DNA of 64,000 nucleotides from Terriglobia bacterium (GCA_965198225.1 CBDAOY010000005.1:768001-832000); one strand, 5' to 3'. Counted from the first letter of the stretch, positions 34,637-59,304 are shown. The notes: generated from the sequence alone by a model not told the origin. Numbers and translations: made by a program.

Positions 34637-37600
34637 CCTCGGCGGTCACCCAAAACCGGCCAATGGTGGTCACCTGAAAACCGGCCAACGAACATAGATA
34701 AGCCCGGGACATTGACACCGACGGGAAGCCGAAACAGGCTCCGTCGGCATGAGCAATGTCTTGAGCACAGAAAAGAGAGAGCAAGTTGTTGCATTGGGGC
34801 GGCTTGGATGGCCGCTGCGTCGGATCGAACAGACCACCGGCGTGCGTCGTGAGACGGCCAGTGCGTATCTGAGAGCGGCCGGAATCCCCATTCGGCCGCC
34901 CGGGAGTTGGGGCCGGCGACCGGCAAAACCGGCCAACGAGGTGACCACCGACCCGGACGGCGTAAATGGTGTCGTTGAGGGGTTTGGCGGTTCCGATACT
35001 TCAAAACCGGCCAACGAAGTGACCACCGACCCGGAGGCCGAGAATCCGGTCTCGGCAGAGTCGTCGGCTCCCCCTCCAAGCCCACCGTCGGGCAGTTCCT
35101 GCGAGCCGTACCGGGAGACCATCCAACAGGCGCTGGAGCGTGGCCGCAACGCGATGGCGATCTGGCAGGACCTGGTCACGGATCACGGTTTTGTCGGCAG
35201 CTACGAATCGGTCAAGCGTTTCGTTCGCAAACTCCGGGGAGTGCGATCCCCGGAAGCGGTCGGAATCATCCAGACCGGAGCTGGAGAGGAAGCGCAGGTC
35301 GACTACGGGACCGGACCGATGGTCCGGGATCCGAAGACGGGCAAGTACCGACGGACGCGGCTGTTCGTGATGACGTTGGGCTACAGCCGCAAATCGGTCC
35401 GGCTGCTGACGTTCAAGTCCAGTTCCCGCATCTGGGCCCAGTTGCACGAGACCGCGTTCCGCCGACTCGGCGGCACTCCCCGCCTCATCGTGCTGGATAA
35501 CCTGCGCGAAGGCGTGATCGTCCCGGACCATTACGACCCCACCCTGAATCCGTTGTTTCGAGATGTCCTGACCCATTACGGCGTGGTGGCCATGCCATGC
35601 CGGGTGCGCGATCCAGACCGCAAAGGCAAAGTCGAATCCGGTGTCGGGCACGCCCAGAAGACCCCATTGAAGGGACAGCGCTTCGAGAGCCTCGACCAGG
35701 CCCAGGGGTATCTGGATCGCTGGGAAGTCCGATGGGCCGACACCCGCATCCACGGCACGACCAAGCGGCAGGTGGCGGCCATGTTCGCCGAAGAGAAACC
35801 ATCTCTTAAGCCGCTGCCGATCGAACCGTTTCGCTATTACCAATTCGGTGAACGTGTCGTCCATCTCGACGGTTGCGTCGAAGTCGAAGCCGCCTATTAC
35901 AGTGTACCGCCGGGCTGGATCGGACGGGGTGTCAAGGTCCAGTGGGACACGCTTCACGTCCGGATCCTGGACCCAAACACCTATCCACTCCTCCGCGAGC
36001 ATGTCCGCCAGAAGCGGGGTGGATACCGTGTCCGTGCTGAAGACAACCCGAAGAAAACCCCGTTAACGACGGTGCAACTGCTGGCCCGAGCCCGCCGCGC
36101 TGGCACCCACATCGGCACACTCTGTGACGCCATTCACCGCCGACTGCGTATTCCGCCGATCATGAACGCCAGTTCCGGGCAACGTGAACACGGATTCCGG
36201 TGATGGTGAACGCTCGCCGGAGCGAAGCGACGATTAGGGTCTCAGTTCTTGCCTCCAGAGTCCAGGGTTGCAGTCTTGATCCTCGTTTCCCATGGTCGTG
36301 TTACGGAGCCGCCGCCGGGTCTGTGGGAACTGTGCGAAAGCCGGAGCGTTGGTTGCGGAGGCTTTTGCAAACAGCGGTGGGAATGATTCTGAAGAAGTCG
36401 GCCGAAGGCCCTCCATATTCATTTCCACGGCTGTGGCAGTTTCCACAGGCCACCTGTTGCGGGAGCATCCTGCAGCCCGGAGCGGGTGCGTACGTGCCGG
36501 TTCCTGCAATTACTTCGCGCGAGGGCGACCGAGGAGCGACGATTCGGTTCCGGTCCGAGCTGGAGTAGCCCCTGAGCCAGGATGCCGTGACAGTCATCGG
36601 GATACCTTCGACTTCTTCGGTGCGGATTTAGTCTGCCGCATCGACGCCCCCTTCAGTTCGATCCGGTGCGCGTTGTGTAAGAGACGGTCGCAGATGGCAT
36701 CGGCCTGGTTCGGATCACCGATGACGCCGTGCCAGTCCGAGACGGGGAGTTGGCTGGCGATCAGGGTCGAAGAGCGTTCGCTGCGTTCCTCGATGACCTC
36801 GATCAGGTCGCGGCGTTCACTATCGCGCAGAGGCGCCAGGAGCCAGTCGTCGATAGCCAGCAGATCGAGCTTGCCCAAACGTGTCAGCAGTCGGGTATAA
36901 GAGCCATCGCCGCGACCGACCCCCAGGTCGTGAAGGAGGCGTGGCATGCGGGTGTAGGCGGCGGCGCAGCCGCTACGGCAAGCCCGCTCGACGAATGCCG
37001 AGCACAGGAAGCTCTTTCCGATGCCGGTGGGCCCGGTCACGATCAGATTGTGCCGCTCCGAGATCCACCCACAGGTTCCCAGAGCCAGGACTTGGGAACG
37101 GTCCAGGTCCCGTCGATGTTTGAAGTTGACGTTTTCCAGTGAAGCCGGATAGCGGAGCTTGGCCGAGCGGAGACGGCGGGTGAGCTTGCGCTGCTCACGG
37201 GCGGTCCATTCCGCATCCACGAGCAGACCCAGCCGTTCGTCAAAGCTGAGTTCCGGGTACTGGGATGACTGGCGTTGTTGGGTGACGGCCTCGGCCATCC
37301 CGGCCAGTTTCATGGCGTGCATCTTCTCCAGGGTTTGTTCAATGAGCATGGAAGAGGTCCTCCTCGGGGTTGGTGTAGTAAGCGGCGCCACGGATGTTGG
37401 CGTGATGCGGCGTCGGATCGATTTCGGTGTCCTGGAACGGCAACCGGTCCTGGGCGGATGCCAGGATGTTCTTGACGGTGCGGTAGCTGTAAGAGTTCAA
37501 GCGCAAGGCCCGGGCGCTGGCGGCCTCCAAACGGTCGGTGCCGTACTGGCGGCCCAGCCGCATCAGTCCCAGGCAGGCGCGGTAGCCTTGTTCCGGATGC

Positions 37601-39891
37601 GGCCGGCGATCGAGAATCCCGGCAACGAGCCGGCCTGTGTCCGGACCGGCTTGTTGTGCCCAACCGATTAACCGCGACGGGGTCCACTCGGCATGGGCCC
37701 GGTGCGCGCTGGGCATGTGCTCGGGAAGGGTCGAGGGCTGGCGGTCATAGCGGCGGCGATGGGACGCTACCCGCCGGTTCTTGAAGTAAATCTCGACAAT
37801 ATTGGCCGTATAGCGGGCTTCCAGCCCCTCCCCGCGCAACTGGTACGGGACGCTGTAGAGGTGGCTGTCCACGTCCACGTGGTAGTCGATGTTGGCGCGG
37901 CAGATCTTCCACTCGGCGGCTTCATACCGGCCCGCCGGCAACGGCTGTAAGGCCGGCCGGTCCAGCCGTTCGAACAGCTCCCGGCGGGATGCGCCGAGTT
38001 GTTGCATCGGCCGCCGGTTCAGTTCCACCAGCAGTTCGCCGATGGCGGTGTTGAGCGCCCCCAGACTGAAGAAGGTGCGATTGCGCAGCCGCGCCAGGAT
38101 CCAGCGCTGGGCGACCAAGACCCCAACTTCGACTTTCGCCTTGTCCCGGGCCTTGCGGGGCCGGGCGGGAATGACCACGGCGCCGTAGTGTTGGGCGGCT
38201 TCTTGATACGTGCGGTGGATACCCGGTTCGTACCGGCATGGAACCGTCACGCCGCTCTTGAGCTGGTCGGGGACCCAGATCCGGCCGGATCCACCAAAGC
38301 ACTCCACCATCCGGTTGTGCGCGCCGATCCAATCGTGGAGTTGTTGGCTCGGCAAGGCTTCGGCGTAAGTGTAGTTGCTGGCGCCCAGCACGGCCACGAA
38401 CAGCTCGGCGGCAACGGTGTCGCCGGTCCGGGGGTTCACCCAGTGCGGTCGCTTGCCCGAGAAGTCGATAAAGACCTTCTCCCCGGCGCGATGCACCTGC
38501 CGCATTGAGGGCCTCAGCTTCTTGGCCCAACGCCGGCAGATCTCACAGAACCGGCTGTACCCGTATCCGTCTGGATGCGTTTCCCGATACTCTTCCCAGA
38601 GCAGATGCAGGGTGACGCCGACCCGCTTCAGCTCCTGGTGGATGTGCTCCAGATCCGGAGGCACACGCTCTCGAGAAGTCGATCCTGAGGGCGGGAACAG
38701 CCGCGCTTCCAGCGCCGTATCGTCCAGCTCCACCGGTAGTGGCCAGGCCAGACCCGCCCGCCTGCTCCGTCCCAGGTACTCCGACACCGTTCCCAGGCTC
38801 ACCTGGCACGCACCTGCGATCGCCCGATGGCTGAACTGCTGCTCGTACTTGAGTCGTAGAATCTCGCGTATCTGTCTCATCAGTAGTCGTTTCGTTGCCA
38901 TCACAGCCTCCTGTGCTGCAGGAGAACCTGACGGCTCCAAACTTCGCTACCAACGAGTGTTCACGATCCCCGGAATCCGCGTTCAGGATGCCCGGAATCG
39001 ATGTTCACGATGGATTGGAATCAGTGTTCAGGATGGGCCGGAATACGCAACCGACAAGGGGAAGCTGCGGTCCGCCGCATCCTGGGTGTGCTCTCCCTGG
39101 CCAAGAAGTACGGTGTCTCCGCCGTGGAGGATGCTTCGGCTGCGGCACTGGAACTCCACGTCTACGAGTATCGTTTCGTCCGCCGCTATCTGGAGCTGGT
39201 CTCTCGTCTGGTCTCGGATGAACTGGACCGTCGCAGCATCCGGTTGTTGGAACGGCGTCGGAAACAGGCCCGGTTCCGCGATCCCCAGAAGACGCTCGAC
39301 TCCTTCGACTTTACTTTCAACAAGAAGATGAATCGTAGTCTGGTCTTCGACCTGGCGACGGGCGCCTTCATCTCCAGGCACGACGATGCCTTGTTTCTCG
39401 GTCCTCCTGGCACCGGCAAGAGTCATCTGGCTCAGGCCATCGGCTTGGCTGCGATTGAGCAGGGCTATCGGGTCGTCTACCGTGAAACTCATGCGCTTCT
39501 CGACGACATCGCCGAAGCCACCATTGACGGTACCCGAAAGGAGTGCATGGAAGCTTTGGCGACGGTCCCGCTGCTGATCATCGACGATCTGGGGATGCGG
39601 AAGCTTCCTCCCACTGCAGCAGAGGAACTCCTCGAGATCGTGATGCGACGCTATGAACGGACCAGTACGTTACTGACATCGAATCGACCCGTCCAAGACT
39701 GGGGAAAACTACTGGGTGATAGCGCCGCCGTCACAGCCATGCTGGACCGGCTGCTCCATCACGGCCACATCCTCAAATGCGGCCCTCGGAGTTGGAGGAC
39801 TAAAACGGGCTTGCCGAGTCCAGTCCCAAAGAGGTAGAACAACACCGTCCCGGGCCATCCCCGTTGGCCGGTTTTGAAGTGACCACTGAGG
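34637..39891 (+). mobile_element. IS21-family element 1 (istA from 34749; istA tail fused by deletion to istB ending 39837)
   Basis: IRs CCTCGGCGGTCACCCAAAACCGGCCAA / TTGGCCGGTTTTGAAGTGACCACTGAGG; AQVDYG, DNLREGV, KGKVE; GPPGTGKSH. Confidence 0.9.
36145..39049 (-). mobile_element. IS21-family element 2, apparently intact (istA 37339-38901, istB 36594-37349), inside istA of element 1
   Basis: Ends TGCGTATTCCG / CGGAATACGCA, CCGAC duplicated at the flanks, sub-terminal GTTCA repeats. Confidence 0.92.
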
Positions 39892-40750
39892 CACCGTCTG
39901 CCCACAGATACACCACTTCCAGATCGTCCAGCCGACGGCTTTGCCAGGCCTCCATTTCTCCCTGCCACTTCTCCTTCAACCGGGCTACGGTGCTGGGGGA
40001 CAGCGGCGCTTCTTCCCCTAAAAGCCCTCTTAAGGCCAGATCGAAATCCCCCTCGGCCAGACCATGCAAATAGAGTTCTGGAATCAAGTCTCGTACCTCT
40101 TGCGTCCGCTTGGCAAACAGCGGCAAGACCCGGCTCTCAAAACGCTCTTCCAGATCCCGCACTCGGGGACGCCGCAGCTTGATCGTTCCGCAACTCAGCG
40201 TCAGTCGCCGCTCCTTACCGTAGCCGTTGCGATAGCCCCCGGGTGCGTCCACTTCTCGGCGACGCTCATTCTTTCTTCGTCCCAGCAGCTGTGTCACTTC
40301 ATCCTCCAACAGTTCCTGTACGTAAAACTGGATCTGCTCTCGCACCCACTCTTCCAGCTGTTCAAAGCAGACTCTTGACTCCACACTTCGATCAATGTTC
40401 TTCTTGCTCATGGCGGTGTGACTCCTTCCTTTCGGGCTCTTCCGCCCGGGTTTTTATTTCACCCGGAAGGATAATCACCGCCTATGCTATTTACACACCT
40501 TTTGAGGGTAGCTCCTGGACAGGAGCGAAGCTTGACAGCTCGGACTGTTGTGTGTGAGCTGTGGCGCGGATGGCGAGAACCCCCACGATCGTCGTGCAGA
40601 CTGCAACGACTGGCAGCCCACGATACTTGCTTCGTAACATTGACGACCTCCTACCGCTTAGTCTGCGCCTGGCGTGCTGATCCGTCTAAGACTTTGTTTC
40701 TATCTTCCGAATAGGCATTTCTATCAGCATGAAGACCTACGATTTCACTC

Positions 40751-42217: not shown

Positions 42218-42479
42218 GATTACCCAGGAGCTAGAAAACGATAGCTCTTCCTGCCGTGGATGGCATGGAGCACCTTCGGGGCGAGCGGGGGCCAGTTCCT
42301 CGACGGACCGGAAGTGCCGGATCCAGAGCAGTTGGACCTGAAGCGATCAGGCAGTGTCCGACTTGAAGGGTTCGTTGAAATAATTGGGCTATGTCGTGAT
42401 TCTTTGGGGTTTCTGTGAGCCCCAGAGTGCCCGATTTGATCGACCGATGAAATCGTACATAATGGTCGGGTGAACCTCC

Positions 42480-42697
42480 GGGCCATCGCCGTCTATCTCC
42501 GGGTATCCACGAGCCGCCAAAACCTCCGATTCTCAGGAGCCCGAACTCCAGACTTGGCTTCAGACCAACGCCGGCAGCGCTCTACGGCCACCTCAACCCC
42601 TACGGGAAGTACCCGCTTCGACTTGGACGAGGACCTCCACGGAGCCGCATTGAGACCGCTAAGGACACAAGGCGACGCCCCTTAGCGTTGGATTTTG
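42480..42697 (+). pseudogene. Collapsed Tn3 remnant: resolvase N-terminal fragment, TnpA C-terminus, inner 17 bp of the TIR
   Basis: AVYLRVST; HLNPYGKY/RFDL..LRPLR..P* with the stop inside CTTAGCG. Confidence 0.75.
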
Positions 42698-43188
42698 GTG
42701 CGCCGTGAAAGGCGCCATTCCCCAGCGGGTGCGAACCCCGCCCGGCAACTGTCGCTCCAGCCGGTAGCAGTCGGAGCGGACGATGGAGGTAACGACATCG
42801 GCTGAAGCACTCCGATGACAAAGGGCCGCCCTGGGCGGTTCAGCGACCACGCGGGCCGCAACGATGTGAACGCTGCGCAGGCCTCGTAACGAAGCGATGC
42901 GGAAGCCGATCCGCCCGGAATACGGGGAAGGCTGCCAGCGGTCGGGAAGCGAGCGACGCGAGCACCGACCGGTTCCGCCGGGGTAGTAGCGGCGGCACGT
43001 GTGGAAGGGGGGGATGGACGCAACACGGGAAGCCCTGCCGGTGGCGTGGCATGCGCCAACCGACAGCCCGCGAGGGTCAGGTTGGGCCGACAGGGTGGCG
43101 GAGAGGTCCGCAGTACCAGGGAAGCCGGGTAATGCCGGTGGAGGGAAGGGACCTCAGTTCGAGAGCAGCGCATGACGGAGGAAGGGAC

Positions 43189-44415
43189 ATGAGGACTGGC
43201 GAGAGCCTAACAGCCTCGGAGAGAGTTCAGCGACTCCAGACGGCGCTACATGCGAAAGCGAAGGAAGCTCTGGGCTTCCGGTTCTACTCTCTGAGCGACA
43301 AGGTGTGGCGCGACGACGTGCTCGCAGTCGCCTGGCAGGCCGTGCGCCGCAACGGCGGCGCGGCCGGGGTGGACGGCGAGACGGTCGGAGACATCGAGGC
43401 GCTTGGGGTAGACCGGTGGCTGGGAGCACTGGCGCGGGACCTGAAGGAAGGGACCTATCGGCCGCATGCGGTTCGGCAGGTTCTCATCCGAATGCCGAAG
43501 AAGCAACGAGGGAAGTTCCGGCCGTTGGGCATTCCGTGTCTCCGGGATCGGGTGGTGCAGACGGCGGCGATGCTGGTGTTATCGCCGATCTTCGAAGCCG
43601 ACCTGCAACCGGAGCAGTATGCGTACCGGCCGGGCCGAGACGCGCATGATCGCAGGACGGGCCACCGGCGATCTGGTGTTACGCGCGTGCCATCGGCTGC
43701 TGAGGACGGGCCACCGGGAGGTGGTGGACGCCGCCGCACGAACCGGGCGCGTCACGAGCGGAAGGGGACCCCGCAAGGGTCTCCGATCTCGCCGCTGTTC
43801 AGCAACATCTACATGCGGCGCTTCATTCTGGGCTGGAAGGTGCTGGGCTACGCCCGGCACTTCAAGGCGGAAATCGTCAACTACGCGGATGACTTCGCGG
43901 TTCTCTGTCGCGCGCCGGCAGCGGTAATGCTAGCGGCGGTCGAAGCCCTGATGAAACGTCTGAAGTTGGCGATGAACGTTGAGAAGACCCGCTGCTGCCG
44001 GGTGCCGGAGGAATCGATGACGTTCCTCGGCTACCGGATTGGTTGCAACTACCGGCCGGACACGGGTACCGCCTACATAGGCACACGTCCGAGCCGGGAA
44101 AGCGTCCAGAGCATCTGCCGTCGTGTGAGCGAGTTGACCACGCCGCGTCACGCGCTCCTGCCGCCGGAGGTCGTAGTGGGACGCCTCAACCGGTTGCTGA
44201 CCGGTTGGGCGAACTACTTCACCCTGGGACAGGTCAGCCCGGCCTACGAGGCGATTGACCGGCACGCAACTCGGCGGCTGCGCCAGTGGCTCTGCCGTAA
44301 GCACAAGGTGCGGACCGGGAAACACGTGCGCTTCCCGGTCGAGCGGCTCTGGTCCGATTACGGGCTCACGCATCTTGCGCCGCGTACGGCGAGCTTTCCG
44401 TGGGCGAAGGCATGA
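43189..44415 (+). pseudogene. Intron A reverse transcriptase/maturase, internally deleted
   Basis: RPLGIP, GTPQGSPISPL, YADD, GWANYF; the RT3-RT4 region is largely missing. Confidence 0.85.
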
Positions 44416-44867
44416 TCTCGTCCGAGAGCCGGATGCGGGAAATCTGCATGTCCGGTTCGATGAGCGTTGCGCCTTGCAAGCGCATGAGATCCAGTCGCCT
44501 GAGATGGCGGCCGTGGCAGAGCCTAGCCGGCAGCCACGTACCGAGTCTTGCGTGGTGGTCGGTGACGGACACTGCGAAGCGTAGACAGGGAGGGAGTAGG
44601 CCGGAACACCAGTGAACGGAAAGATAGCCCCGAAATCGAACGTGGTTGAAGTAGCCGACCCTGTCGCTCTAGGGGGAAGGCGGAATCGCAGGGCACGCAA
44701 TGGCAAGTGCCCTGGGGTGCTTCCGGGGTTCGTACCGCCGGCATGCAACCAAGGATTTCATGGGAACAAGGGAGATCCGTCAGGTTCAAGCGGAGCTTGT
44801 AGGGTTGGACAAGCCAACAACGCGAGGAAGACCCGAAGGCCTGTCGGAAGTCAGACTGGCTGATAGT

Positions 44868-46096
44868 GCGTGCCTGGCAGCACGCGTTTCCGGCGGGTTA
44901 AAGTCCCGCTCGGCCCGAGGCCACGGGTCGATATCCAACAAGTGGGGGTAATGCCTCACTGGCCGAAGTGTAGACAGGTAGTGCAGATGCCTAAACGGGC
45001 ACGAAGGCGAAAGCCGGATACGGCCAAGGCAAAGCTGGAGCCAGCTACGGAAACTTTGGAGGGCAGGGCGCCCACCGCGAGGTGGGGTCTGAAGGGCATG
45101 AGGAGAACCACCGGGTCGTAATCGACGGGAGCCATCCCGAGGATGAACCGGTCGGCCAAAGATGGGGAATGGTCGAGCCCGCACTATTGGGGCGAAGGCG
45201 CATTGGTTCCACCCCATCGCACCAAGGTGTGTGCGGGCGACACGGTGGAGAAGAGACGCGAGTGACCCAGGGAGGCCTGGTATCGTCCGAGCGGAAGGTA
45301 AGGTCGAGATGATGTGGCACCCGCAGACGAAAGGGCGGGCAACCGAGAAGACAAACATCGACCTAGAGCCCTGCGCGGTAGGTGCGGATATAAGCGAGAG
45401 CGAAATTCCGGCCGACGCGGTGTCAGGAATCGGATCGGGGAATAGTACTCAGGAACGAGACGGCAAACATAAGGTCTCGGATCGTTGCTTCGAGCAGCGG
45501 CGCTGGCGGGTCCAAAAGGCCCGTTGGAGGGGGAAGTCCCCGTACTCAGTCGTGAATGTGCGAGCGATGGGAAACGCGGAGATATCGTGAACTTGGATAG
45601 TTCCCTTAGCGAAAGACCCAAACGCGGTACGAACGAAGCCGCCACCTGCCGCCACACAGCGAATTCCGAACGAGGAGCAACTGAGGAAAGCGGCTTGCGG
45701 GAAAACCGCACGAGCCGTTTGATTGAGCGGACGGTGGAAGGGCCGATCGGCCCGACCACTTTCGACTCTACACTCAGGAACGAGACGGCAAACATAAGGT
45801 CTCGGATCGTTGCTTCGAGCAGCGGCGCTGGCGGGTCCAAAAGGCCCGTTGGAGGGGGAAGTCCCCGTACTCAGTCGTGAATGTGCGAGCGATGGGAAAC
45901 GCGGAGATATCGTGAACTTGGATAGTTCCCTTAGCGAAAGACCCAAACGCGGTACGAACGAAGCCGCCACCTGCCGCCACACAGCGAATTCCGAACGAGG
46001 AGCAACTGAGGAAAGCGGCTTGCGGGAAAACCGCACGAGCCGTTTGATTGAGCGGACGGTGGAAGGGCCGATCGGCCCGACCACTTTCGACTCTAC
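44868..46096 (+). ncRNA. ORF-less group II intron C (904 nt, 44868-45771) plus a tandem copy of its 3' 325 nt
   Basis: DV AAAGCGGCTTGCGGGAAAACCGCACGAGCCGTTT, end GACTCTAC, EBS1 ACTATT at 45183-45188; 45447-45771 equals 45772-46096. Confidence 0.85.
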
Positions 46097-46222
46097 ACTC
46101 CGAGGTCGGGAGAGCCGATCACATGGGGAAGCGGCCAGCAGAAGTGGACTCGTTCTTGGGAAACATGAGCTCCATGCAACGGGAGGATACGGTCCTCTAT
46201 GCAACGAGAGGAACAACCAGTC

Positions 46223-47545
46223 ATGGAAACGAAACTGGAACGAATAGCGGCGAAAGCTCGGAGTGAGCCAAAGCTCCGGTTCACGTCACTGGCGCATCAT
46301 GTCACCCGAGAGCGTGTGTGGAAGAACCTGTGTCAAGTGCCCCGCAACACGGCTCCCGGATGTGATGGTCAGAGGGTACCGGAGGCGAAGGAGGAATTCG
46401 GAGTCTGGGTGGAGCCAATGCTCCAGTCTGTTCACCAGAAGGGATATCGCGCTCCGCCGATTCGGCGGGTGTATATCCCCAAGCCCGGCAAGCAGGAGAA
46501 ACGTCCCCTGGGCGTGCCCTGTGTTCAAGATCGGGCCCTTCAGCGCAGCGTGGCCGAGGTATTGGTCGCCATCTACGAGCAGGACTTCTTGCCCTGTTCC
46601 TTTGGTGGCCGGCCTGGGCTGGGCGCCCACAATGCACTGGCAACCCTCCATGAGGTGATTTCCGGATGCAAGGTGAGTTGGGTGTTGGAGGCGGACTTGA
46701 AGAACTTTTTCGGGAGTTTAGACCATGGATGGCTACTCCGCTTTGTGGAGCATCGAGTCGGAGATCCGCGGATCATCAGTCTGATACGACGATGGTTAAA
46801 GGCGGGCGTTTTCGAAGACGGGGAATTGCATTCGAACGAAGAGGGAACCCCGCAAGGTGGGTCGATCAGCGTTCTGCTGAGCAATCTGTACCTGCATTAT
46901 GTGCTTGACCTGTGGTTTGACCGGATGGTCCGGCCACGCCTGAAGGGTGAAGCGTATCTGGTGCGGTACATCGACGACTTTGTCGTGTGTTTCCAATATC
47001 GGGACGATGCGCTTCGTTTCCAGAACGTTCTGCGCAAGCGACTGGGAAAGTTTGGACTGGTTCCGGAGCCGACCAAGACGAAGCTCGTCGAATTCGGCCG
47101 CTATGCCCAGCGCGATGTCGTCCGGCGCGGGAGAAAACGTCCAGAGACGATCTATTTTCTGGGCATGACCCTGTACTGTACGCGTAATCGCAAAGGCAAT
47201 TTTAGAGTGGGACTGCGAACAGAGAAGTCTCGACTTCGACGCAGTCTGGCTCATCTACGCGGCGTGATGAGGCGAATGCGTCACTTGCCGGTCCGGGAGC
47301 AAGTGCACAATCTGAACCGAGTCTTGCGCGGGCACTACGCCTACTATGGCATTGCCGGGAACCTCCGGGCTCTGCAGCACGTCGCTCGGGCCGTGGAACG
47401 TTACTGGCGCCAAATGCTCAGCAGTCGTAGTCGTGCAGGCTTCGTCCGGTGGGAAGTATTCAACCGGATTCAGCTGCACTTTCCGTTACAGCGTCCCAAG
47501 TTGGCTCTCCGCTATCGGGAGTTCCAGTCTCTCGCTGTGCTGTAA
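46223..47545 (+). CDS. ltrA: Intron B reverse transcriptase/maturase (no En domain)
   Basis: YIPKPG..RPLGVP, EADLKNFF, GTPQGG, RYIDDF, RGHYAYY. Confidence 0.93.
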   Translation: METKLERIAAKARSEPKLRFTSLAHHVTRERVWKNLCQVPRNTAPGCDGQRVPEAKEEFGVWVEPMLQSVHQKGYRAPPIRRVYIPKPGKQEKRPLGVPCVQDRALQRSVAEVLVAIYEQDFLPCSFGGRPGLGAHNALATLHEVISGCKVSWVLEADLKNFFGSLDHGWLLRFVEHRVGDPRIISLIRRWLKAGVFEDGELHSNEEGTPQGGSISVLLSNLYLHYVLDLWFDRMVRPRLKGEAYLVRYIDDFVVCFQYRDDALRFQNVLRKRLGKFGLVPEPTKTKLVEFGRYAQRDVVRRGRKRPETIYFLGMTLYCTRNRKGNFRVGLRTEKSRLRRSLAHLRGVMRRMRHLPVREQVHNLNRVLRGHYAYYGIAGNLRALQHVARAVERYWRQMLSSRSRAGFVRWEVFNRIQLHFPLQRPKLALRYREFQSLAVL

Positions 47546-47631
47546 ATCCAATTCTGAAGAGCGCAGTGCGGGAAATCCGCACGCTGCGTTCTGTGGGAGC
47601 CGGAGGCGGGCAACTGCCTCCGGCCACCCGG

Positions 47632-49038
47632 GCGGATTCGGGCGCCGATTTTGAGAAGCTTCAGACGGATGGTCCCGCACTGGGCATGGGCCATCGCGGT
47701 ATCTTTGAGCCCGAGGCGTCGCAGGGCATGCATGAGCATGTACGCAGCTGAGGAGAGATAGAGCCGGAGCTGATTGGCGCGCATGGTCGCCGCGCTGGTC
47801 CGGTCCGCAAATAGGTCCAACTGCTGTTCCTTGATACGGTTCTCCATGTCGCCCCGCGCGCAGTAGAAGTCCTCATACAAAGCGCGGGCTTGGAAGCGTT
47901 CCGGCGGCAGGGAGGTCACGATGAATCGGGGATTGGCGCCCTTGTCCAGGAACTCCGCCTTGCCGACGACGCGTCGCGCGCGGGTCCAGCTGTTTAGAGT
48001 CCGGTACTGGAAATCCTTAAACACCCGCGCCGGTTTCCCGGTGGCGTTAAACTCCGCTTCCGCCTGAACCATTTCTTCAGCGATTTCTTGCTTGAGACGA
48101 CTGTTCTTGGCCAACCCGATCACATAATCGACCGGATGGGATTCACACCAGGCGAGCAGTTCATCCCTGCAAAAGCCCGAGTCGGCCCGGATGATGATCG
48201 ATACTGTGGGCCACACCTGTCGGATCTGACCGACGATGCGCTCTAACTCATCCACCGCTCCGTCGGCCCCGTCAATGTTGGAACGCCGGAGCCGGGCGCA
48301 CAGCAGATGTTCTCCCGAGAAGATGTACAACGGCAGGTAGCAGTAGTTGCCGTAGTAGCCGTGAAAGAACCGTCCTTCCTGGTTGCCATGGATCGTATCG
48401 TCGGTGGCATCCAGGTCCAGAACGATCTCAGAGGGCTCCGATTCGTGGGCCGCGATAAACGCGTCGACCATCCACCGGTCGATCTTGTCGCCATCCATGG
48501 CGATCTTCTTGTACCGCTCCTGGCCATCGACCTGCTCTGCGGTCAGTTCCAACCGGTTCAGCGTGCACTTGCCTGCCAACGCCTTTCCCCGGTCTCCGGC
48601 CTGCCGCCGGTTTTTTCCCAGTGGATCGGCCTTCTCCACCGCCACGGCCAGCATCGGATCGGTCCGTAGCTGGTCGTGGTCGTTCAGGTCCTCATAGCCC
48701 AAGCACAGTCCATAAATCCGCTGGCCCAACAACTCCTTCACGCTGTGTTCGATCAACCTCGGGTCCCGGTGATCGGTAAAACACTGCTCCAGTCCGGCGA
48801 TCAAACCCGTCCGCTTCTCGACTTCCCTCAACAGCAGAACACCCGCGTCGGAGGTGATCTTTCCGCCGTCGAATCGCGCCTTCACTTTCCGTTGAAAAAG
48901 TCCGTGAAATTCGAACGTGGCTTGCTTACACTCTGTTCTCATAAGGGCCGTCTCCGTTTGGGTTTTTAAACGTTTCTCGTCAAACGCTTTATGCCAAACA
49001 GGGCGGCCTTTTCTGGTCCTATCCGTGAAATATAGGGG
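47632..49038 (-). mobile_element. IS1380-family element, 3'-truncated (transposase from 48942)
   Basis: FDGGKITSDAG, LDLDATDD, RADSGF, RGDMENRIKE; left end CCCCTATATTTCACGGAT. Confidence 0.9.
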
Positions 49039-50769
49039 CTAGCCGGCAGCCACGTACCGAGTCTTGCGTGGTGGTCGGTGACGGACACTGCGAAGCGTAG
49101 ACAGGGAGGGAGTAGGCCGGAACACCAGTGAACGGAAAGATAGCCCCGAAATCGAACGTGGTTGAAGTAGCCGACCCTGTCGCTCTAGGGGGAAGGCGGA
49201 CACTCCGAGGTCGGGAGAGCCGATCACATGGGGAAGCGGCCAGCAGAAGTCGACTTCGGATCTTGGGACTCCCGAGCTCAATGCATTCCGGGACACGGGT
49301 CTATGCAACGAGTCGGCTACAACGTCCAGATCGCTGAAACGACACTGAGCACGAACCTGATCGCCGAACAGCAGGTCGGAGTGAGCCAAGGTCTCCGGTT
49401 CTCGGTCACTGCTCGCATCATGTCACGGCGACAGCGGTCGTGGAAGAACCTGTGGCAAGTGCGACGCAGATCGACGGTCGCGGATGTGATGGCTCTACAA
49501 GTATCGAAGACGATTGAGGACTTCGAAGCCGCCGTGGAGCCAATGCTCCTAGTCTGTTCCAGAAGCCCGATATCGGCGCACGGCCAGATTCGGCGGGTGT
49601 ATATCCCCAAGCCCGGCAAGCAGGAGAAACGTCCCCTGGGCGTGCCCTGTGTTCAGCGATCGGGCCCTTCATCGCGCAGCGTGGCCGAGGTATTGGTCGC
49701 GCATCTACGAGCACGTACTTCTTGTCAGTTACTTTGGTGGCCGGCCTGGGCTGGGCGCCCGCAATGCAGAGGCTGCGGTCATGACGCGATTTCCGGATGT
49801 ACCAAGAACACCTATCGGCGCATGGACGCGACTTCGAAGAACTTTTTCGGAAGTTTAGACGATGGATGGCTACTCCGCTTTGTGGAGCATCGAGTCGGAG
49901 ATCCGCGGATCATCAGTCTGATACGACGATGGTTAAAGGCGGGCGTTTTCGAAGACGGGGAATTGCATTCGAACGAAGAGGGAACCCCGCAAGGTGGGTC
50001 GATCAGCGTTCTGCTGAGCAATCTGTACCTGCATTATGTGCTTGACCTGTGGTTTGACCGGATGGTCCGGCCACGCCTGAAGGGTGAAGCGTATCTGGTG
50101 CGGTACATCGACGACTTTGTCGTGTGTTTCCAATATCGGGACGATGCGCTTCGTTTCCAGAACGTTCTGCGCAAGCGACTGGGAAAGTTTGGACTGGTTC
50201 CGGAGCCGACCAAGACGAAGCTCGTCGAATTCGGCCGCTATGCCCAGCGCGATGTCGTCCGGCGCGGGAGAAAACGTCCAGAGACGATCTATTTTCTGGG
50301 CATGACCCTGTACTGTACGCGTAATCGCAAAGGCAATTTTAGAGTGGGACTGCGAACAGAGAAGTCTCGACTTCGACGCAGTCTGGCTCATCTACGCGGC
50401 GTGATGAGGCGAATGCGTCACTTGCCGGTCCGGGAGCAAGTGCACAATCTGAACCGAGTCTTGCGCGGGCACTACGCCTACTATGGCATTGCCGGGAACC
50501 TCCGGGCTCTGCAGCACGTCGCTCGGGCCGTGGAACGTTACTGGCGCCAAATGCTCAGCAGTCGTAGTCGTGCAGGCTTCGTCCGGTGGGAAGTATTCAA
50601 CCGGATTCAGCTGCACTTTCCGTTACAGCGTCCCAAGTTGGCTCTCCGCTATCGGGAGTTCCAGTCTCTCGCTGTGCTGTAAATCCAATTCTGAAGAGCG
50701 CAGTGCGGGAAATCCGCACGCTGCGTTCTGTGGGAGCCGGAGGCGGGCAACTGCCTCCGGCCACCCGGT
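49039..50769 (+). mobile_element. Group II intron B copy 2: 5'-clipped, domain I-III deletion, RT with a scrambled 5' part
   Basis: 49039-49200 matches 44523-44684; from about 49862 identical to copy 1. Confidence 0.85.
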
Positions 50770-51037
50770 GCGACTGGAAACGAAGCCACGGCGAGGAGTG
50801 AGGCACCGGAATCGGCGAAAGCCACCGGCAACAGCTACCCCCTTTGCCTACCGCCACCGCGCCAGTCGTCGACTCTACCCCCCTGCCGGACTCGACCCCT
50901 TCCTACATCGAGGTGGAGCAGCCCCACAATAGCTTCAACGAGTTCGCCTGCGGCGCACTTGGAAAACCGCATCAGATTTTCTGGTTCCCCTCAGTTTCCA
51001 GCTGGAAGCTCAAGCCGCCGGGGGGGGAGCAACGCTG

Positions 51038-57312: not shown

Positions 57313-57936
57313 TTGGACGCCGCCTTGAAAACCGTCGCTTACCTCCGCGTCTCCACTCGTTCGCAGGACCTCGCCAACCAGAAGCTGGCGATCCTCGAGT
57401 TCAGCCAGAAACGCCGATTCCCGATCGACCAATTCATCGAGTCCCGGATCTCGTCGCGCAAGAGTCCGCTCGAGCGCCGCATTGACGAGATGTTGGGGAC
57501 GCTTCAGCCCGGCGACCGTCTGCTGGTCAGCGAGTTGTCGCGGCTCGGCCGCAGCCTCTCTCAGGTGATCCAGCTCGTGGAGACCCTGGTCCGGCGCAAG
57601 ATCCGCTTCATCGCCATCAAGGAGGCGATCGAGTTCGACGGCAAGCAGGACCTGCGGACTAAGGTGATGATCGCGCTGTTCGGATTGTTTGCCGAGGTCG
57701 AGCGGGACCTGATCTCAGAACGGACCAAGGAAGGACTCGCCTCTGCCAAAGCCAAGGGGAAACGGCTCGGCCGACCCAAGGGGGCCTTGGGAACATCCAG
57801 GCTCGACGGCAAGGAGCAAGACATCCGGGCGCTGTTGGGCAAGGATGTCTCCAAGGCCTCGATCGCCAAGATCCTGAACGTCTCCCGCTCCGCCCTCTAC
57901 CACTTTATCGAGACCCGCAAGATCGCTCCGGGCTGA
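57313..57936 (+). CDS. Serine recombinase/resolvase
   Basis: YLRVST, SELSRLGRS, AEVERDLISERTKEG, C-terminal HTH. Confidence 0.9.
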   Translation: MDAALKTVAYLRVSTRSQDLANQKLAILEFSQKRRFPIDQFIESRISSRKSPLERRIDEMLGTLQPGDRLLVSELSRLGRSLSQVIQLVETLVRRKIRFIAIKEAIEFDGKQDLRTKVMIALFGLFAEVERDLISERTKEGLASAKAKGKRLGRPKGALGTSRLDGKEQDIRALLGKDVSKASIAKILNVSRSALYHFIETRKIAPG

Positions 57937-57973
57937 CCCCAAGGCTCGGACCGCACTTATGTTGTATTTCAAC

Positions 57974-58166
57974 GTGCACCGTGAGAAGGCGCCAATCCTC
58001 AGCGGGTGCGAATCCCGCCCGGCAACTGTCGCTCCAGTCGGTAGCAATCGGAGCGGATGGTGGAGGTAACAACATCGTCTGAAGCACTCCGATGACAAAG
58101 GGCCGCCTCGGGCGGCTCAGCGACCACACAGGCCACAACGCGAGTAAACGCCGAGCAGGCCTCGTA
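57974..58166 (+). mobile_element. 5' fragment of a group II intron related to intron A (intron D)
   Basis: Collinear with 42698-42888; broken by IS1111. Confidence 0.85.
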
Positions 58167-59304
58167 TGTGGACGCCCCCCTGGTTGGCAAGCCTGACTTC
58201 GAACCGAGGATCGGTGGCATTCAGGTCAGGTACGGTCGTATGTGCGGCCTCTTGATGCGGCACTTGCTGGCCGCGGGCCCGTATGGTGTTCGTGAGATCG
58301 GATCCAAATCGAAACGACGGGCTCGATGGCCCTTCGAGGCCTACTGGTTTTTCCGATCCCGTCTTGTCGACCGTTTGCCCCTACCTTGTCCGACGTCCTG
58401 CTTGCACTCTCCAGTTGGAACCTCCGTGGCCCGTGTCCATCCGCCCAGGCTGCCAGCCGAACGAGTTCCTCTCTCTTCTCCGCGTTTCTGATCTCGCCGA
58501 CCCTTCTTCGCTCCACTGATCTGACTCGCAACCCTACGCTGTAGCCGCAACGGCCTTTGTCATTCCCCGTGCCCTGTAGCTCTCCACCTTCACCGTCATG
58601 GCCCAGATGATGCGTGCCATCCTGTTGGCCAGAGCCACCGCAACCACCTTCCTCGGCTTTTCGTCCAGCATCCGGCCAAGCCAGGGATCGGGGACCTCCC
58701 TCCGCCGGATGGCACTCGAGATGACCGCCGTCGCCCCCAGGCACAGGAGCCTCCGGATGTCGCGCTGTCCCATCTTTGTGATCCCCCCCAGCCGTTGGCG
58801 ACCACCCGTCGAGGATTCACGCGGCGTGATCCCGACCCATGCCGCAAAGTCACGTCCATTACGGAAGCTCTCCATTGGTGGCGCGAACGCGTGCACCGCC
58901 ATTGCCGTGAGCTCTCCCACCCCTGGGATCGTCATCAGGCGCCCGAGCGCCTCATCTTCCCTCACGATGTGCCGGATCTCCCGGTCCAGCTCATCGATCT
59001 CCGCATCCAGATCGTGGGTCCGCTCGATGAGGCGGCGTATAGCGGGAGGCACCAGCGCCGGGAAACACTCTTCACGCTCCGCGAACACCTCCTCCAGCCT
59101 CCCGACGTTGTGGGTCCCAAGCGGAGCGACGAGTCCGAACTCCGCGAGATGACCCCGCAGCGCGTTGATCGTCTGTGTCCGCTGGTGCACCAGCATTGCC
59201 CGGGCCCGGAACACCACCGATCGTGCCTGCTCCTCCTCGGTCTTCACGGCCACGAACCGCATCGTCGGCCGCTGGGCCGCCTCGACGATCGCTCCCGCGT
59301 CGTT
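58167..59304 (-). mobile_element. IS110/IS1111-family element, 5'-truncated (transposase to 58534; ~370-nt 3' non-coding region)
   Basis: LMTIPGVG, FAAWVGITP.ESSTGG, VAVALANRMAR; sub-terminal GGGGCGTCCACAT. Confidence 0.88.
58170..58530 (-). ncRNA. Putative IS1111 seekRNA/bridge RNA
   Basis: Guide-hairpin-guide loop at 58310-58342 matching both flanks of the target. Confidence 0.7.

What the first reader, a model, noticed from the sequence alone, without database searches (positions are those of the whole stretch)
42681..50899. Group II intron inserted inside a Tn3-family 38-bp terminal inverted repeat
Seen: joining the exons (42681-42697 + 50879-50899) gives the reverse complement of GGGGTCGAGTCCGGCAGGGGGCAAAATCCAACGCTAAG. 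That is exactly 38 bp with the GGGG..ACGCTAAG signature, directly after a TnpA C-terminus. I found no EBS1 complementary to ATTTTG. Known: IS4321/IS5075 target Tn21 TIRs and IIC introns target hairpins; I know of no TIR-targeting intron class. Inference: an intron lineage that homes to transposon ends, perhaps by structure or protein recognition, and immobilises the transposon.
Basis: partly seen in the sequence, partly recalled or inferred. Interest (0 to 1): 0.82.

Follow-up and report, generated by a model that had tools for sequence, protein, structure and literature searches.

The report
Group II introns splitting transposon ends
A self-splicing mobile intron has inserted by ordinary RNA-DNA base pairing into the 38-bp end repeat of a Tn3-type transposon and was later invaded itself; this intron lineage uses such transposon ends as a home site, which is new in detail but resembles a published case.

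Summary
42681-42697 and 50879-50899 are the inner 17 and outer 21 bases of a Tn3-family 38-bp inverted repeat (IR). Intact, intron-free homologues of the same IR, joined at exactly that point, occur in related genomes.

The 8.2 kb between the halves is a nest, not one intron. It holds an outer endonuclease-less group II intron 'A' (42698-44466 plus tail 50770-50878), a second intron 'B' in A's domain VI, a 1.24-kb repeat, a complete IS1380-family IS, and a second B fragment.

A hairpin loop at 42916-42922 (CGGAAUA) pairs with AUUUUG through two G·U pairs. A sister sublineage has GUUGAAA and sits after UUUCAAC in a second Tn3-type IR. Loop and exon covary across 59 introns.

Sites in or beside Tn3-type IRs are found in this genome and in three unnamed related genomes (IR rejoined in two of them); one named MAG shows a matching 3' exon. 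Most members of the wider clade (57-80% RT identity) sit in other short targets.

A precedent exists: RmInt2 targets the IRs of ISRm17 (PMC4615759). I rate this a new variant of a known kind. Immobilisation of the transposon is inferred, not shown.

The parts
42325..42680 (+). Interior of a miniature Tn3-family derivative: the 5' end of a resolvase gene fused to the 3' end of tnpA. Its left IR is missing in the window.
   Evidence: 90% identical to C5:762072-762391, where an intact left IR is present. The C8 copy runs on into a serine-recombinase gene.
42570..42685 (+). Frameshifted tnpA C-terminal remnant, with its stop codon TAG at 42683-42685 inside the IR.
   Evidence: Three-frame translation compared with the C-terminus of the PF01526 TnpA at C5:523796-524899.
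42681..42697 (+). Inner 17 bases of the 38-bp Tn3-family IR. This is the 5' exon and holds IBS1 (AUUUUG, -6 to -1) and a candidate IBS2 (CGUUG, -12 to -8).
42698..44466 (+). Outer intron A, sublineage T1: domains I to V and the 5' strand of domain VI.
   Evidence: GTGCG start. RF02003 scores 80.9 bits against a cut-off of 49. Copies without intron B continue straight into the tail.
42916..42922 (+). EBS1 loop CGGAAUA in a conserved hairpin of domain I.
   Evidence: Alignment. RNAalifold stem with 5 of 16 sequences changed on both sides at the closing pair. Permutation test.
43189..44415 (+). Intron A reverse transcriptase/maturase ORF, damaged by an internal deletion of about 38 aa. No endonuclease domain.
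   Evidence: RVT_1 in two stretches plus GIIM. The sequence is garbled compared with the intact 446-aa copy at C5:760219-761559.
44426..44458 (+). Domain V of intron A.
   Evidence: RF00029 match 44424-44485, 39.3 bits, just under the cut-off of 40 because domain VI is interrupted.
44467..47631 (+). Inner intron B1, inserted in the stem of A's domain VI. It starts TTGCGCC and lacks its last base or two.
   Evidence: Comparison of A copies with and without B. RF02005 137.2 bits and RF00029 46.5 bits. Its RT (46199-47545) scores TIGR04416 317.2 bits.
44863..46100 (.). A repeat of unknown kind, about 1.24 kb, inserted in B1, with a 329-bp tandem duplication.
   Evidence: Self-BLAST. Many separate copies in the genome. 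No Pfam hit for the two reverse-strand ORFs tested that lie wholly or partly in it (43930-44748, 45449-46216).
47632..49042 (-). Complete IS1380-family insertion sequence.
   Evidence: PF13701 at E 3.7e-150. NF033539 388 bits against a cut-off of 180. Four full-length copies at 95-99.6% identity (and two at 81-84%) elsewhere in the genome.
49039..50769 (+). Intron B2: a second B copy lacking its first 56 bases and an internal segment. It is 91.5% identical to B1 over the RT.
50770..50878 (+). 3' tail of intron A: the distal part and 3' strand of a long domain VI, with an inferred branch A at 50872. It ends CTAC.
   Evidence: 100% identical to 10 other tail copies (9 full-length, 1 partial), two of which directly follow A's domain V. 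A contig joint 44466->50770 was seen in one run.
50879..50899 (+). Outer 21 bases of the IR (the 3' exon). The transposon ends at 50899.
57313..57936 (+). Serine resolvase (tnpR-like) gene of a second Tn3-type element.
   Evidence: PF00239 at E 2.5e-34. 58.6% identical to the resolvase upstream of a related intron in L112.
57955..58166 (+). Second site: the inner half of a 'delta' IR (57955-57973, ACTTATGTTGTATTTCAAC), followed by a 5' fragment of the sister intron sublineage T2 (57974-58166), which is cut by an IS110-family element.

Best explanation
The region is a decayed nest of mobile elements built on the right end of a miniature Tn3-family transposon.

Shown. An endonuclease-less, IIB-like group II intron (A, sublineage T1) lies between IR positions 17 and 21. 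It is in sense orientation, 12 bases downstream of the tnpA stop codon, and points out of the transposon. Its EBS1 loop (CGGAAU) is complementary to the last six exon bases (AUUUUG). A sister sublineage (T2, about 90% identical) carries GUUGAAA and lies after UUUCAAC in a second, homologous Tn3-type IR, beside a tnpR gene or a tnpA remnant. Both IR types exist uninterrupted, joined at exactly the insertion point.

Inferred. The intron ribonucleoprotein retrohomed into the IR by reverse splicing guided by EBS1/IBS1, probably also by EBS2/IBS2 and a protein contact near -15. Because it has no endonuclease, it would prime cDNA synthesis at a replication fork, as described for RmInt1 and RmInt2.

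Later events. Intron B homed into A's domain VI, a 1.24-kb repeat and an IS1380-family IS landed in B, and recombination left B1-IS-B2.

Inferred consequence. The insertion separates the outer 21 bp of the IR from the inner 17 bp, so this end can no longer serve the transposase. RNA splicing cannot repair the DNA.
For: Anatomy:
- Intron ends and Rfam/Pfam/NCBIfam hits.
- A copies without B, and 11 tail copies at 100% identity.

IR identity:
- A PF01526 TnpA followed by an intact homologous IR.
- 7 uninterrupted IRs with the same or a near-identical inner half in the genome.
- By my count, 11 of 12 distinct places in relatives have inner and outer halves contiguous. Four genomes hold inverted pairs.
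- An uninterrupted delta IR lies at C5:752393.

Base pairing:
- T1 and T2 loops differ exactly where their exons differ.
- Across 59 non-redundant intron/exon rows the mean EBS1-IBS1 helix is 5.75, against 3.53 for 500 permutations (maximum 3.86; 0 of 500 reach the observed value).
- The loop is closed by a stem with compensatory changes.

Recurrence:
- 6 of 11 tail copies are followed by a 19-21-nt IR outer half and then divergent flanks.
- 5' junctions lie after a tnpA remnant (window; C5:762050; C4:145572) or a tnpR gene (window 57974).
- Relatives L113 and L114 rejoin to delta-like IRs. L091, L106 and L112 follow a tnpR C-terminus. L001 has the same kind of 3' exon.

Precedent for mechanism and consequence: passages of PMC4615759 and PMC5894124.
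Against: - No uninterrupted copy of the window's exact 17 + 21 combination was found. Own-genome IRs with the identical inner half have a different outer half (11 of 21 identical by eye). Relatives' IRs with the same outer half differ at 2 of 17 inner positions.
- The nest is rearranged. B1 stops at the IS and B2 restarts at B base 57. At the other two loci with this outer half, the upstream side is not intron A. The two halves here may therefore stem from different loci.
- Three own-genome IRs have an inner half that is identical (two copies) or differs at one base (C8:82872), with C at +1, yet are unoccupied.
- T2 also sits in a host ORF and in other non-IR sites, so specificity is set by about 15 bases of exon, not by 'being a TIR'.
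- EBS2 and EBS3 are not firmly placed. The EBS2 signal is weak: 3.98 against 3.57.
- The window copy is dead: its RT carries a deletion and the inner intron is truncated.
- Related sequences are not independent, so the permutation test overstates the support.
- No activity data exist.
Confidence: 0.8

Rival explanations
1. The 38-bp join is accidental. The 5' and 3' flanks belong to unrelated loci brought together by recombination between intron or IS copies, or by mis-assembly, and no intron ever entered an IR.
For: The nest is chimeric at the IS. No locus with this outer half has a clean link to intron A's 5' end. No contig joins 42697 to 50879 in the four runs laid (contigs only, so this is no proof of absence).
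Against: Both junction types recur independently, and the geometry fits to the base. The tail is followed by exactly 21 nt up to the element's end at 3 loci. Intact IRs in relatives have exactly 21 nt after the homologous inner half. The delta IR gives the same picture, with an uninterrupted copy in this genome and rejoinable copies in G024 and G015.
Confidence: 0.05
2. Passive accumulation. The introns insert widely and persist only in dispensable DNA such as dead transposon ends, so the IR association reflects survival, not targeting.
For: The genome is full of decayed mobile elements. T2 has ectopic sites, including a host ORF. The wider clade has many unrelated targets.
Against: Insertions lie at one fixed position and orientation within each IR type. 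EBS1 matches that position in two sublineages. The same site recurs in other genomes.
Confidence: 0.08
3. One reading: the intron recognises the transposon end by DNA structure or by its protein, in the way IIC introns use hairpins, not by base pairing.
For: A conserved TA[A/G] about 13-17 nt upstream of many insertion sites has no assigned RNA partner. Distal 5'-exon positions are read by the protein in RmInt1/RmInt2.
Against: Six to seven base pairs of EBS1-IBS1 covary. The 58 nt upstream of the site fold weakly: -8.9 kcal/mol, z -1.89, with 11 of 200 shuffles as good. The protein has no DNA-binding or endonuclease domain by Pfam.
Confidence: 0.05

Closest known systems
[quoted passage not shown] 2014, PMC4615759; passages read)
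   Same: An endonuclease-less IIB-type group II intron that uses terminal inverted repeats of a transposable element as its natural target. Recognition is by EBS/IBS pairing plus a few distal exon positions. Two inverted target copies per element are available.
   Different: The target here is the 38-bp IR of Tn3-family replicative transposons, not an IS. The C-terminal class D motif quoted in that paper is not present in this protein. Two sublineages with different EBS1 occupy two IR subfamilies. Nothing has been tested experimentally. The figures showing RmInt2 sites are supplements that I could not open.
RmInt1 in ISRm2011-2 (PMC5894124; passages read)
   Same: An intron that colonises a multicopy mobile element. 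That paper states the insertion blocks the element's spread.
   Different: RmInt1 sits inside the IS, not in its terminal repeat.
IS4321/IS5075 (IS1111 family), which target the 38-bp IRs of Tn21-family transposons (Partridge and Hall 2003, seen only as a reference; IS5075 splitting the IR of Tn1696, figure legend in PMC5725488)
   Same: Another mobile element that inserts site-specifically inside the same kind of 38-bp repeat and splits it.
   Different: Those are DNA transposons with a DEDD transposase. Here the invader is a retroelement guided by RNA pairing.
Group IIC and IIC-attC introns (Kl.pn.I3 in an attC site, PMC5725488)
   Same: Bacterial introns that settle in conserved non-coding features of mobile DNA, just downstream of genes.
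   Different: By recalled knowledge, IIC introns read a hairpin plus a short IBS1. Here there is a 6-7-bp IBS1, a likely IBS2 and no convincing hairpin.
Twintrons (introns within introns; PMC7049729, title and abstract seen in a search listing only)
   Same: Intron B sits inside domain VI of intron A in 4 of 6 B 5' junctions in this genome.
   Different: This is a bacterial case. The inner intron starts UUGCG and also occurs at two sites outside A.

Membership tests
Group II intron (bacterial, with RT/maturase ORF in domain IV) | Conserved 5' GUGYG and 3' AY ends, and a domain VI with a bulged A near the 3' end | tested here: met
   GTGCG at 42698 and CTAC at 50875-50878. Both ends are conserved in relatives: 75 of 79 loci gave a BLAST hit to the intron's 5' 200 nt (most starting GTGCGCC) and about 74 of 78 with a D5 anchor show the GACTCTAC-type end. 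The bulged A at 50872 was placed by hand pairing and is an inference.
Group II intron (bacterial, with RT/maturase ORF in domain IV) | RNA domains matching curated covariance models | tested here: met
   RF02003 scores 80.9 bits (cut-off 49) for A. A's D5-D6 scores 39.3 against 40, just below, because D6 is interrupted. B scores RF02005 137.2 bits and RF00029 46.5 and 47.1 bits.
Group II intron (bacterial, with RT/maturase ORF in domain IV) | Intron-encoded reverse transcriptase with a maturase domain | tested here: met
   RVT_1 + GIIM. TIGR04416 scores 313.9 and 317.2 bits against a cut-off of 300. YADD is present in the intact copy.
Group II intron (bacterial, with RT/maturase ORF in domain IV) | EBS1-IBS1 pairing with the 5' exon | tested here: met
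Group II intron (bacterial, with RT/maturase ORF in domain IV) | Splicing and retrohoming activity | not testable with these tools
   No ligated-exon or empty-site joint was seen in contigs of 4 runs, which cannot show absence.
Bacterial class D introns (RmInt1/RmInt2 type) | Protein lacks DNA-binding and endonuclease domains | tested here: met
   Only RVT_1 and GIIM are found in the 446-aa protein.
Bacterial class D introns (RmInt1/RmInt2 type) | C-terminal class D motif LX3AX3PXLF[V/A]HW, as quoted in PMC4615759 | tested here: not met
   The C-terminus reads ...LTHLAPRTASFPWAKA. L and A fit; P, LF and HW do not. This was compared by eye with the motif quoted.
Bacterial class D introns (RmInt1/RmInt2 type) | Phylogenetic placement of the RT among class D reference proteins | not tested
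   No reference set was at hand. The best plasmid-borne relatives are below 50% identical.
Group IIC introns | Insertion just after a stem-loop such as a terminator or attC (feature recalled from knowledge) | tested here: inconclusive
   The fold of 42640-42697 gives -8.9 kcal/mol, z -1.89, with 11 of 200 shuffles as good.
Tn3-family terminal inverted repeat | About 38 bp, with GGGG at the outer end and ...CTAAG at the inner end overlapping the stop codon of tnpA (signature recalled from knowledge, then checked in this genome) | tested here: met
   The two halves. An intact paralogue directly after a PF01526 TnpA, with its stop in CTTAG. Further intact copies. The regex count had no shuffle control.
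Tn3-family terminal inverted repeat | Marks the end of a mobile element: flanks differ between copies immediately outside it, and it occurs as inverted pairs | tested here: met
   Flanks diverge after CCCC in 3 of 3 own copies and in relatives. Inverted pairs 0.8-1.8 kb apart occur in G024, G015, G006 and G027. A left IR faces the occupied right IR at C5:762051-762427.
Tn3-family terminal inverted repeat | Full-length Tn3-type transposase next to this particular IR | tested here: not met
   Only a remnant of about 40 aa lies upstream in the window. The genome's PF01526 hits are two truncated genes and fragments elsewhere.
Tn3-family terminal inverted repeat | 5-bp target-site duplication | not tested
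   The left IR is missing in the window.

The most novel reading that the evidence does not exclude
T1/T2 and their near relatives form a lineage of endonuclease-less group II introns that specialises as a hyperparasite of Tn3-family transposon ends. It always enters the 38-bp IR at the same place and orientation, just after the tnpA or tnpR stop, and so rides the transposon's own transcription. Each insertion permanently disables one transposon end, so the intron would act as a natural brake on Tn3-type elements.
Probability: 0.35. Interest if true: 0.65.

Novelty: new variant of a known kind. Interest (0 to 1): 0.5.

Why it matters
Tn3-family transposons are major carriers of accessory genes, and their 38-bp ends are the one sequence they cannot change freely. 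A retroelement that homes into that sequence by a few RNA-DNA base pairs would be a natural, reprogrammable antagonist of these transposons. It offers a clean system for studying parasite-on-parasite dynamics: intron in intron in transposon end.

There is also a practical point. IRs split by several kilobases hide transposon boundaries from annotation pipelines. The two sublineages give a ready-made natural experiment on how EBS1 changes retarget an intron.

The idea that an intron can target terminal repeats of a mobile element is already published for RmInt2/ISRm17, so the advance is in the target family, the recurrence across genomes and the covariation, not in the principle.

Tried and rejected
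- BLAST of an intact IR with flanks against plasmids gave only chance-level hits.
- The RT against plasmids gave only relatives below 50% identity, with no informative context.
- tblastn of two own-genome TnpA proteins against L001-L079 gave 0 of 79 hits. The window's resolvase gave 1 of 79, and that hit was not next to the intron.
- EBS2: a candidate single-stranded segment upstream of EBS1 pairs only slightly better with real exons than with permuted ones (3.98 against 3.57). I do not rely on it.
- EBS3/IBS3 were not located.
- The class D motif is not met.
- An IIC-like hairpin target is not convincing.
- Reads: 4 runs (two of unknown kind, two RNA libraries labelled sponge metagenome) were laid as contigs. 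No joint 42697->50879 appeared, so there is neither support for nor evidence against splicing or an empty site. One RNA-library contig joins 44466->50770, which fits the B-less A copies present as DNA and does not show splicing of B.
- Attempts to link the window's outer IR half to intron A's 5' end at the other two loci failed: both are rearranged or truncated.
- No Tn3-type TnpA was found for the delta element. Only a C-terminal remnant of about 25 aa was seen, judged by eye.
- Literature searches for a group II intron in a Tn3-family IR found none in the held library (passages). Subscription journals are not covered, and the supplements of PMC4615759, which show the RmInt2 sites, were closed.

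Full report
**1. The observation**

The window reads CTTAGCGTTGGATTTTG at 42681-42697, followed by GTGCGCC at 42698. It reads ...GTCGACTCTAC up to 50878, followed by CCCCCTGCCGGACTCGACCCC at 50879-50899. The two flanks add up to 38 bases, with CTTAG at one end and CCCC at the other. Each half occurs once in the window.

Upstream, a frameshifted remnant of about 40 aa (ALYGHLNPYGKY / RFDLDEDLHGAALRPLRTQGDAP*) resembles the C-terminus of a PF01526 transposase elsewhere in the genome. Its TAG stop lies inside the repeat.

**2. The flanks are a real Tn3-family terminal repeat**

- The genome (6.4 Mb, 9 contigs; the window is C5:768001-832000) holds a truncated Tn3-type tnpA at C5:523796-524899. 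It ends in an uninterrupted 38-bp repeat with a near-identical inner half, and its stop codon lies in CTTAG.
- The 17-mer with up to 3 mismatches gives 11 rows in the genome. Two are occupied by the intron, 7 are inner halves of uninterrupted 38-bp repeats ending in CCCC, and 2 do not look like IRs.
- The 21-mer occurs 3 times, always directly after the intron tail. The flanks diverge right after CCCC, as expected for the end of a mobile element.
- No uninterrupted copy of this outer half exists in this genome, but such copies exist in relatives. By my count, 11 of 12 distinct places in 7 related genomes have the 21-mer (up to 2 mismatches) preceded, without a gap, by CTTAGCGTAGGATTT[C/G]G-like inner halves.
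- In G024, G015, G006 and G027 these repeats form inverted pairs 0.8-1.8 kb apart, as miniature Tn3-derived elements would.

The element in the window is itself a miniature derivative: the 5' end of a resolvase gene fused to the 3' end of tnpA. Its left repeat is lost here but is present in the sister copy at C5:762390-762427.

**3. What lies between the flanks**

It is not one intron.

- Rfam finds three sets of group II domains, and Pfam finds three RT/maturase ORFs.
- Comparison with other copies in the genome resolves the order.
- The outer intron A runs 42698-44466 and resumes at 50770-50878. Two copies elsewhere (C6:7952-5959 and C5:~748255-743295) go straight from domain V into this 109-nt tail.
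- All 11 tail copies in the genome are 100% identical (10 full-length, 1 partial).
- Intron B (44467 onward, starting TTGCGCC) is inserted in the stem of A's domain VI.
- B1 carries a 1.24-kb repeat with a 329-bp tandem duplication (44863-46100).
- B1 stops at 47631 against a complete IS1380-family IS (47632-49042; NF033539 388 bits; four other copies at 95-99.6% and two at 81-84%).
- After the IS comes B2, a second B copy. It starts at B base 57, lacks an internal segment and is 91.5% identical to B1 over the RT.
- This B1-IS-B2 order cannot come from a single insertion. It needs recombination between two copies, so the window's two repeat halves may derive from two occupied loci.
- The window's A protein has an internal deletion. 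An intact 446-aa copy (RVT_1 + GIIM, YADD, no endonuclease domain; TIGR04416 313.9 bits) exists at C5:760219-761559.

**4. How the target is recognised**

Alignment of the genome's A copies shows two sublineages about 90% identical in domain I.

- T1 (the window and C5:762050) has ...CCGCC CGGAAUA CGGGG... and follows ...GGAUUUUG.
- T2 has ...CCGCC GUUGAAA CGGGG... and follows ...AUUUCAAC.
- CGGAAU pairs with AUUUUG through four Watson-Crick and two G·U pairs. GUUGAAA is the exact complement of UUUCAAC.

I tested this on 79 loci encoding RT relatives of 57-80% identity, together with own-genome copies.

- The variable 7-nt loop and the last bases of the 5' exon covary.
- Over 59 non-redundant rows the mean helix is 5.75 bp, against 3.53 for 500 permutations. 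None of the 500 reached the observed value.
- RNAalifold places the loop on a conserved 4-bp stem whose closing pair changes on both sides in 5 of 16 sequences.
- A candidate EBS2 segment gives only a weak signal. EBS3 was not found.
- The DNA upstream of the site has no convincing hairpin.

Recognition is thus the ordinary group II kind. The relatedness of the sequences inflates the permutation result, but the T1/T2 contrast stands on its own.

**5. Is this a lineage that homes to transposon ends?**

In this genome:

- Of 11 tail copies, 3 are followed by the window-type outer half. Three more are followed by a 19-nt 'delta' outer half (ACGAAT...ACCC) and then divergent flanks. Two, which are duplicates of each other, lie in a host ORF, and 3 lie elsewhere.
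- An uninterrupted delta repeat exists at C5:752393, split by the intron elsewhere at exactly 19|19.
- Delta inner halves with T2 lie 18 bases after a resolvase gene (window 57313-57936 and 57955-57973). One also lies after a remnant that looks like a TnpA C-terminus (judged by eye).
- The intron always points outward, in the sense of the upstream gene.

In near relatives (DNA search of 100 genomes, 22 with a match counting the window's own genome):

- L113 (G024) and L114 (G015) rejoin to delta-like repeats.
- L106 and L113 are the same G024 site.
- L091, L106 and L112 lie directly after a resolvase C-terminus. L112 has a full resolvase 58.6% identical to the window's.
- L084/L115 lies in an ORF.
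- L001, from a MAG labelled Latescibacterota and the closest RT relative at 80%, has the same kind of 3' exon.

In the wider clade the picture differs:

- 0 of 79 loci have a TnpA match.
- Copies within one genome mostly share only 6-18 nt upstream and fewer than 10 nt downstream.
- Many targets carry TA[A/G]CCC some 12-17 nt upstream.
- One family (L071/L072) sits 17 nt inside the end of an IS with a DDE_Tnp_1 transposase.

So TIR use is a trait of the T1/T2 subclade, not of the whole clade.

**6. Consequence**

The insertion separates the outer 21 bp from the inner 17 bp by at least 2 kb. From what is known of Tn3-family repeats (recalled knowledge), the transposase needs the whole repeat, so the end should be dead. 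Splicing acts on RNA and cannot restore the DNA.

A review of RmInt1 states the analogous conclusion for ISRm2011-2 (PMC5894124, passages). This step is inferred here.

Three repeats in this genome have an identical or near-identical inner half and C at +1, yet are empty. Either distal 3' positions or strand orientation matter, or the intron is no longer active.

**7. Comparison with what is known**

- RmInt2, a class D intron of S. meliloti, has all its copies in the inverted repeats of ISRm17. That paper argues this gives it a target on the lagging-strand template at one end or the other (PMC4615759 and PMC5894124, passages).
- The present protein lacks the class D C-terminal motif quoted there, so I do not file it under class D. 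Its class is open.
- IS4321/IS5075 target the same kind of 38-bp repeat, but they are DNA transposons.
- My four searches found no paper describing a group II intron in a Tn3-family repeat. The library lacks most subscription journals, and supplements were closed.

**8. Verdict**

This is a real feature and was correctly spotted.

- Novelty: a new variant of a known kind.
- Interest: moderate (0.5). A specialist would find the recurrence across genomes, the EBS1 switch between two repeat families and the intron-in-intron-in-repeat nesting attractive, but not very surprising.

Noticed in passing
window 44467-47631 and 49039-50769: Intron B begins UUGCG instead of the usual GUGYG in all 6 copies whose 5' end is present. 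Four of the 6 sit in domain VI of intron A. The other two follow unrelated sequence that also ends in GAGCG, which fits a short IBS1.
   Followed up: partly
window 44863-46100: A repeat of about 0.9-1.24 kb with a 329-bp tandem duplication. It has many separate copies on 6 contigs, with sharp common boundaries and no Rfam hit. The two ORFs tested that lie in or overlap it (43930-44748, 45449-46216, both reverse strand) have no Pfam hit. Its nature is unknown.
   Followed up: partly
window 58166-59312; also C4:145764 and C5:748063: An element encoding an IS110-family transposase (Transposase_20, 58534-59262, reverse strand) interrupts the T2 intron at the same intron position (about base 190) at three loci. 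This reflects either site-specific targeting of the intron or copying of one composite.
   Followed up: no
L020, L021, L037, L045, L062, L067, L071: Head-to-tail tandem copies of related introns (...GACTCTAC directly followed by GTGCGCC) occur in several genomes, with up to four in a row in L067.
   Followed up: no
L023-L027, L035, L041, L045, L058, L070-L073 and others: Targets of many clade members in different phyla share TA[A/G]CCC about 12-17 nt upstream of the insertion site. This overlaps a likely IBS2 (ACCC[G]) and may include a protein-read position like T-15 of RmInt1/RmInt2.
   Followed up: partly
L071:4499-6570, L072:4499-6574: A related intron (62-63% RT identity) lies about 17 nt inside the left end of a 2-kb repeated element that encodes a 607-621-aa DDE_Tnp_1 transposase. 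This is another case of an intron near a transposable element's terminus, in the opposite orientation.
   Followed up: partly
L114 (G015:C29), locus positions 100-964 on the reverse strand: An ORF-less derivative of the T2-like intron, 865 nt long, sits in a delta-like repeat.
   Followed up: no
C8:82800-82835 (own genome): Directly outside an uninterrupted repeat lies CTAGCCCGCATGTTTCA. This closely resembles the 5' exon of a third intron subtype at C8:1286858 and of L092 in a relative, and may be an empty target.
   Followed up: no
window 34749-40411 and 60054-61511: The window is dense in other insertion sequences. There are two IS21-like transposases with an IstB helper (34749-36203, 37339-38940, 39001-39837), a Mutator-family fragment (39800-40411) and a DDE_Tnp_1 transposase (60054-61511).
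   Followed up: no
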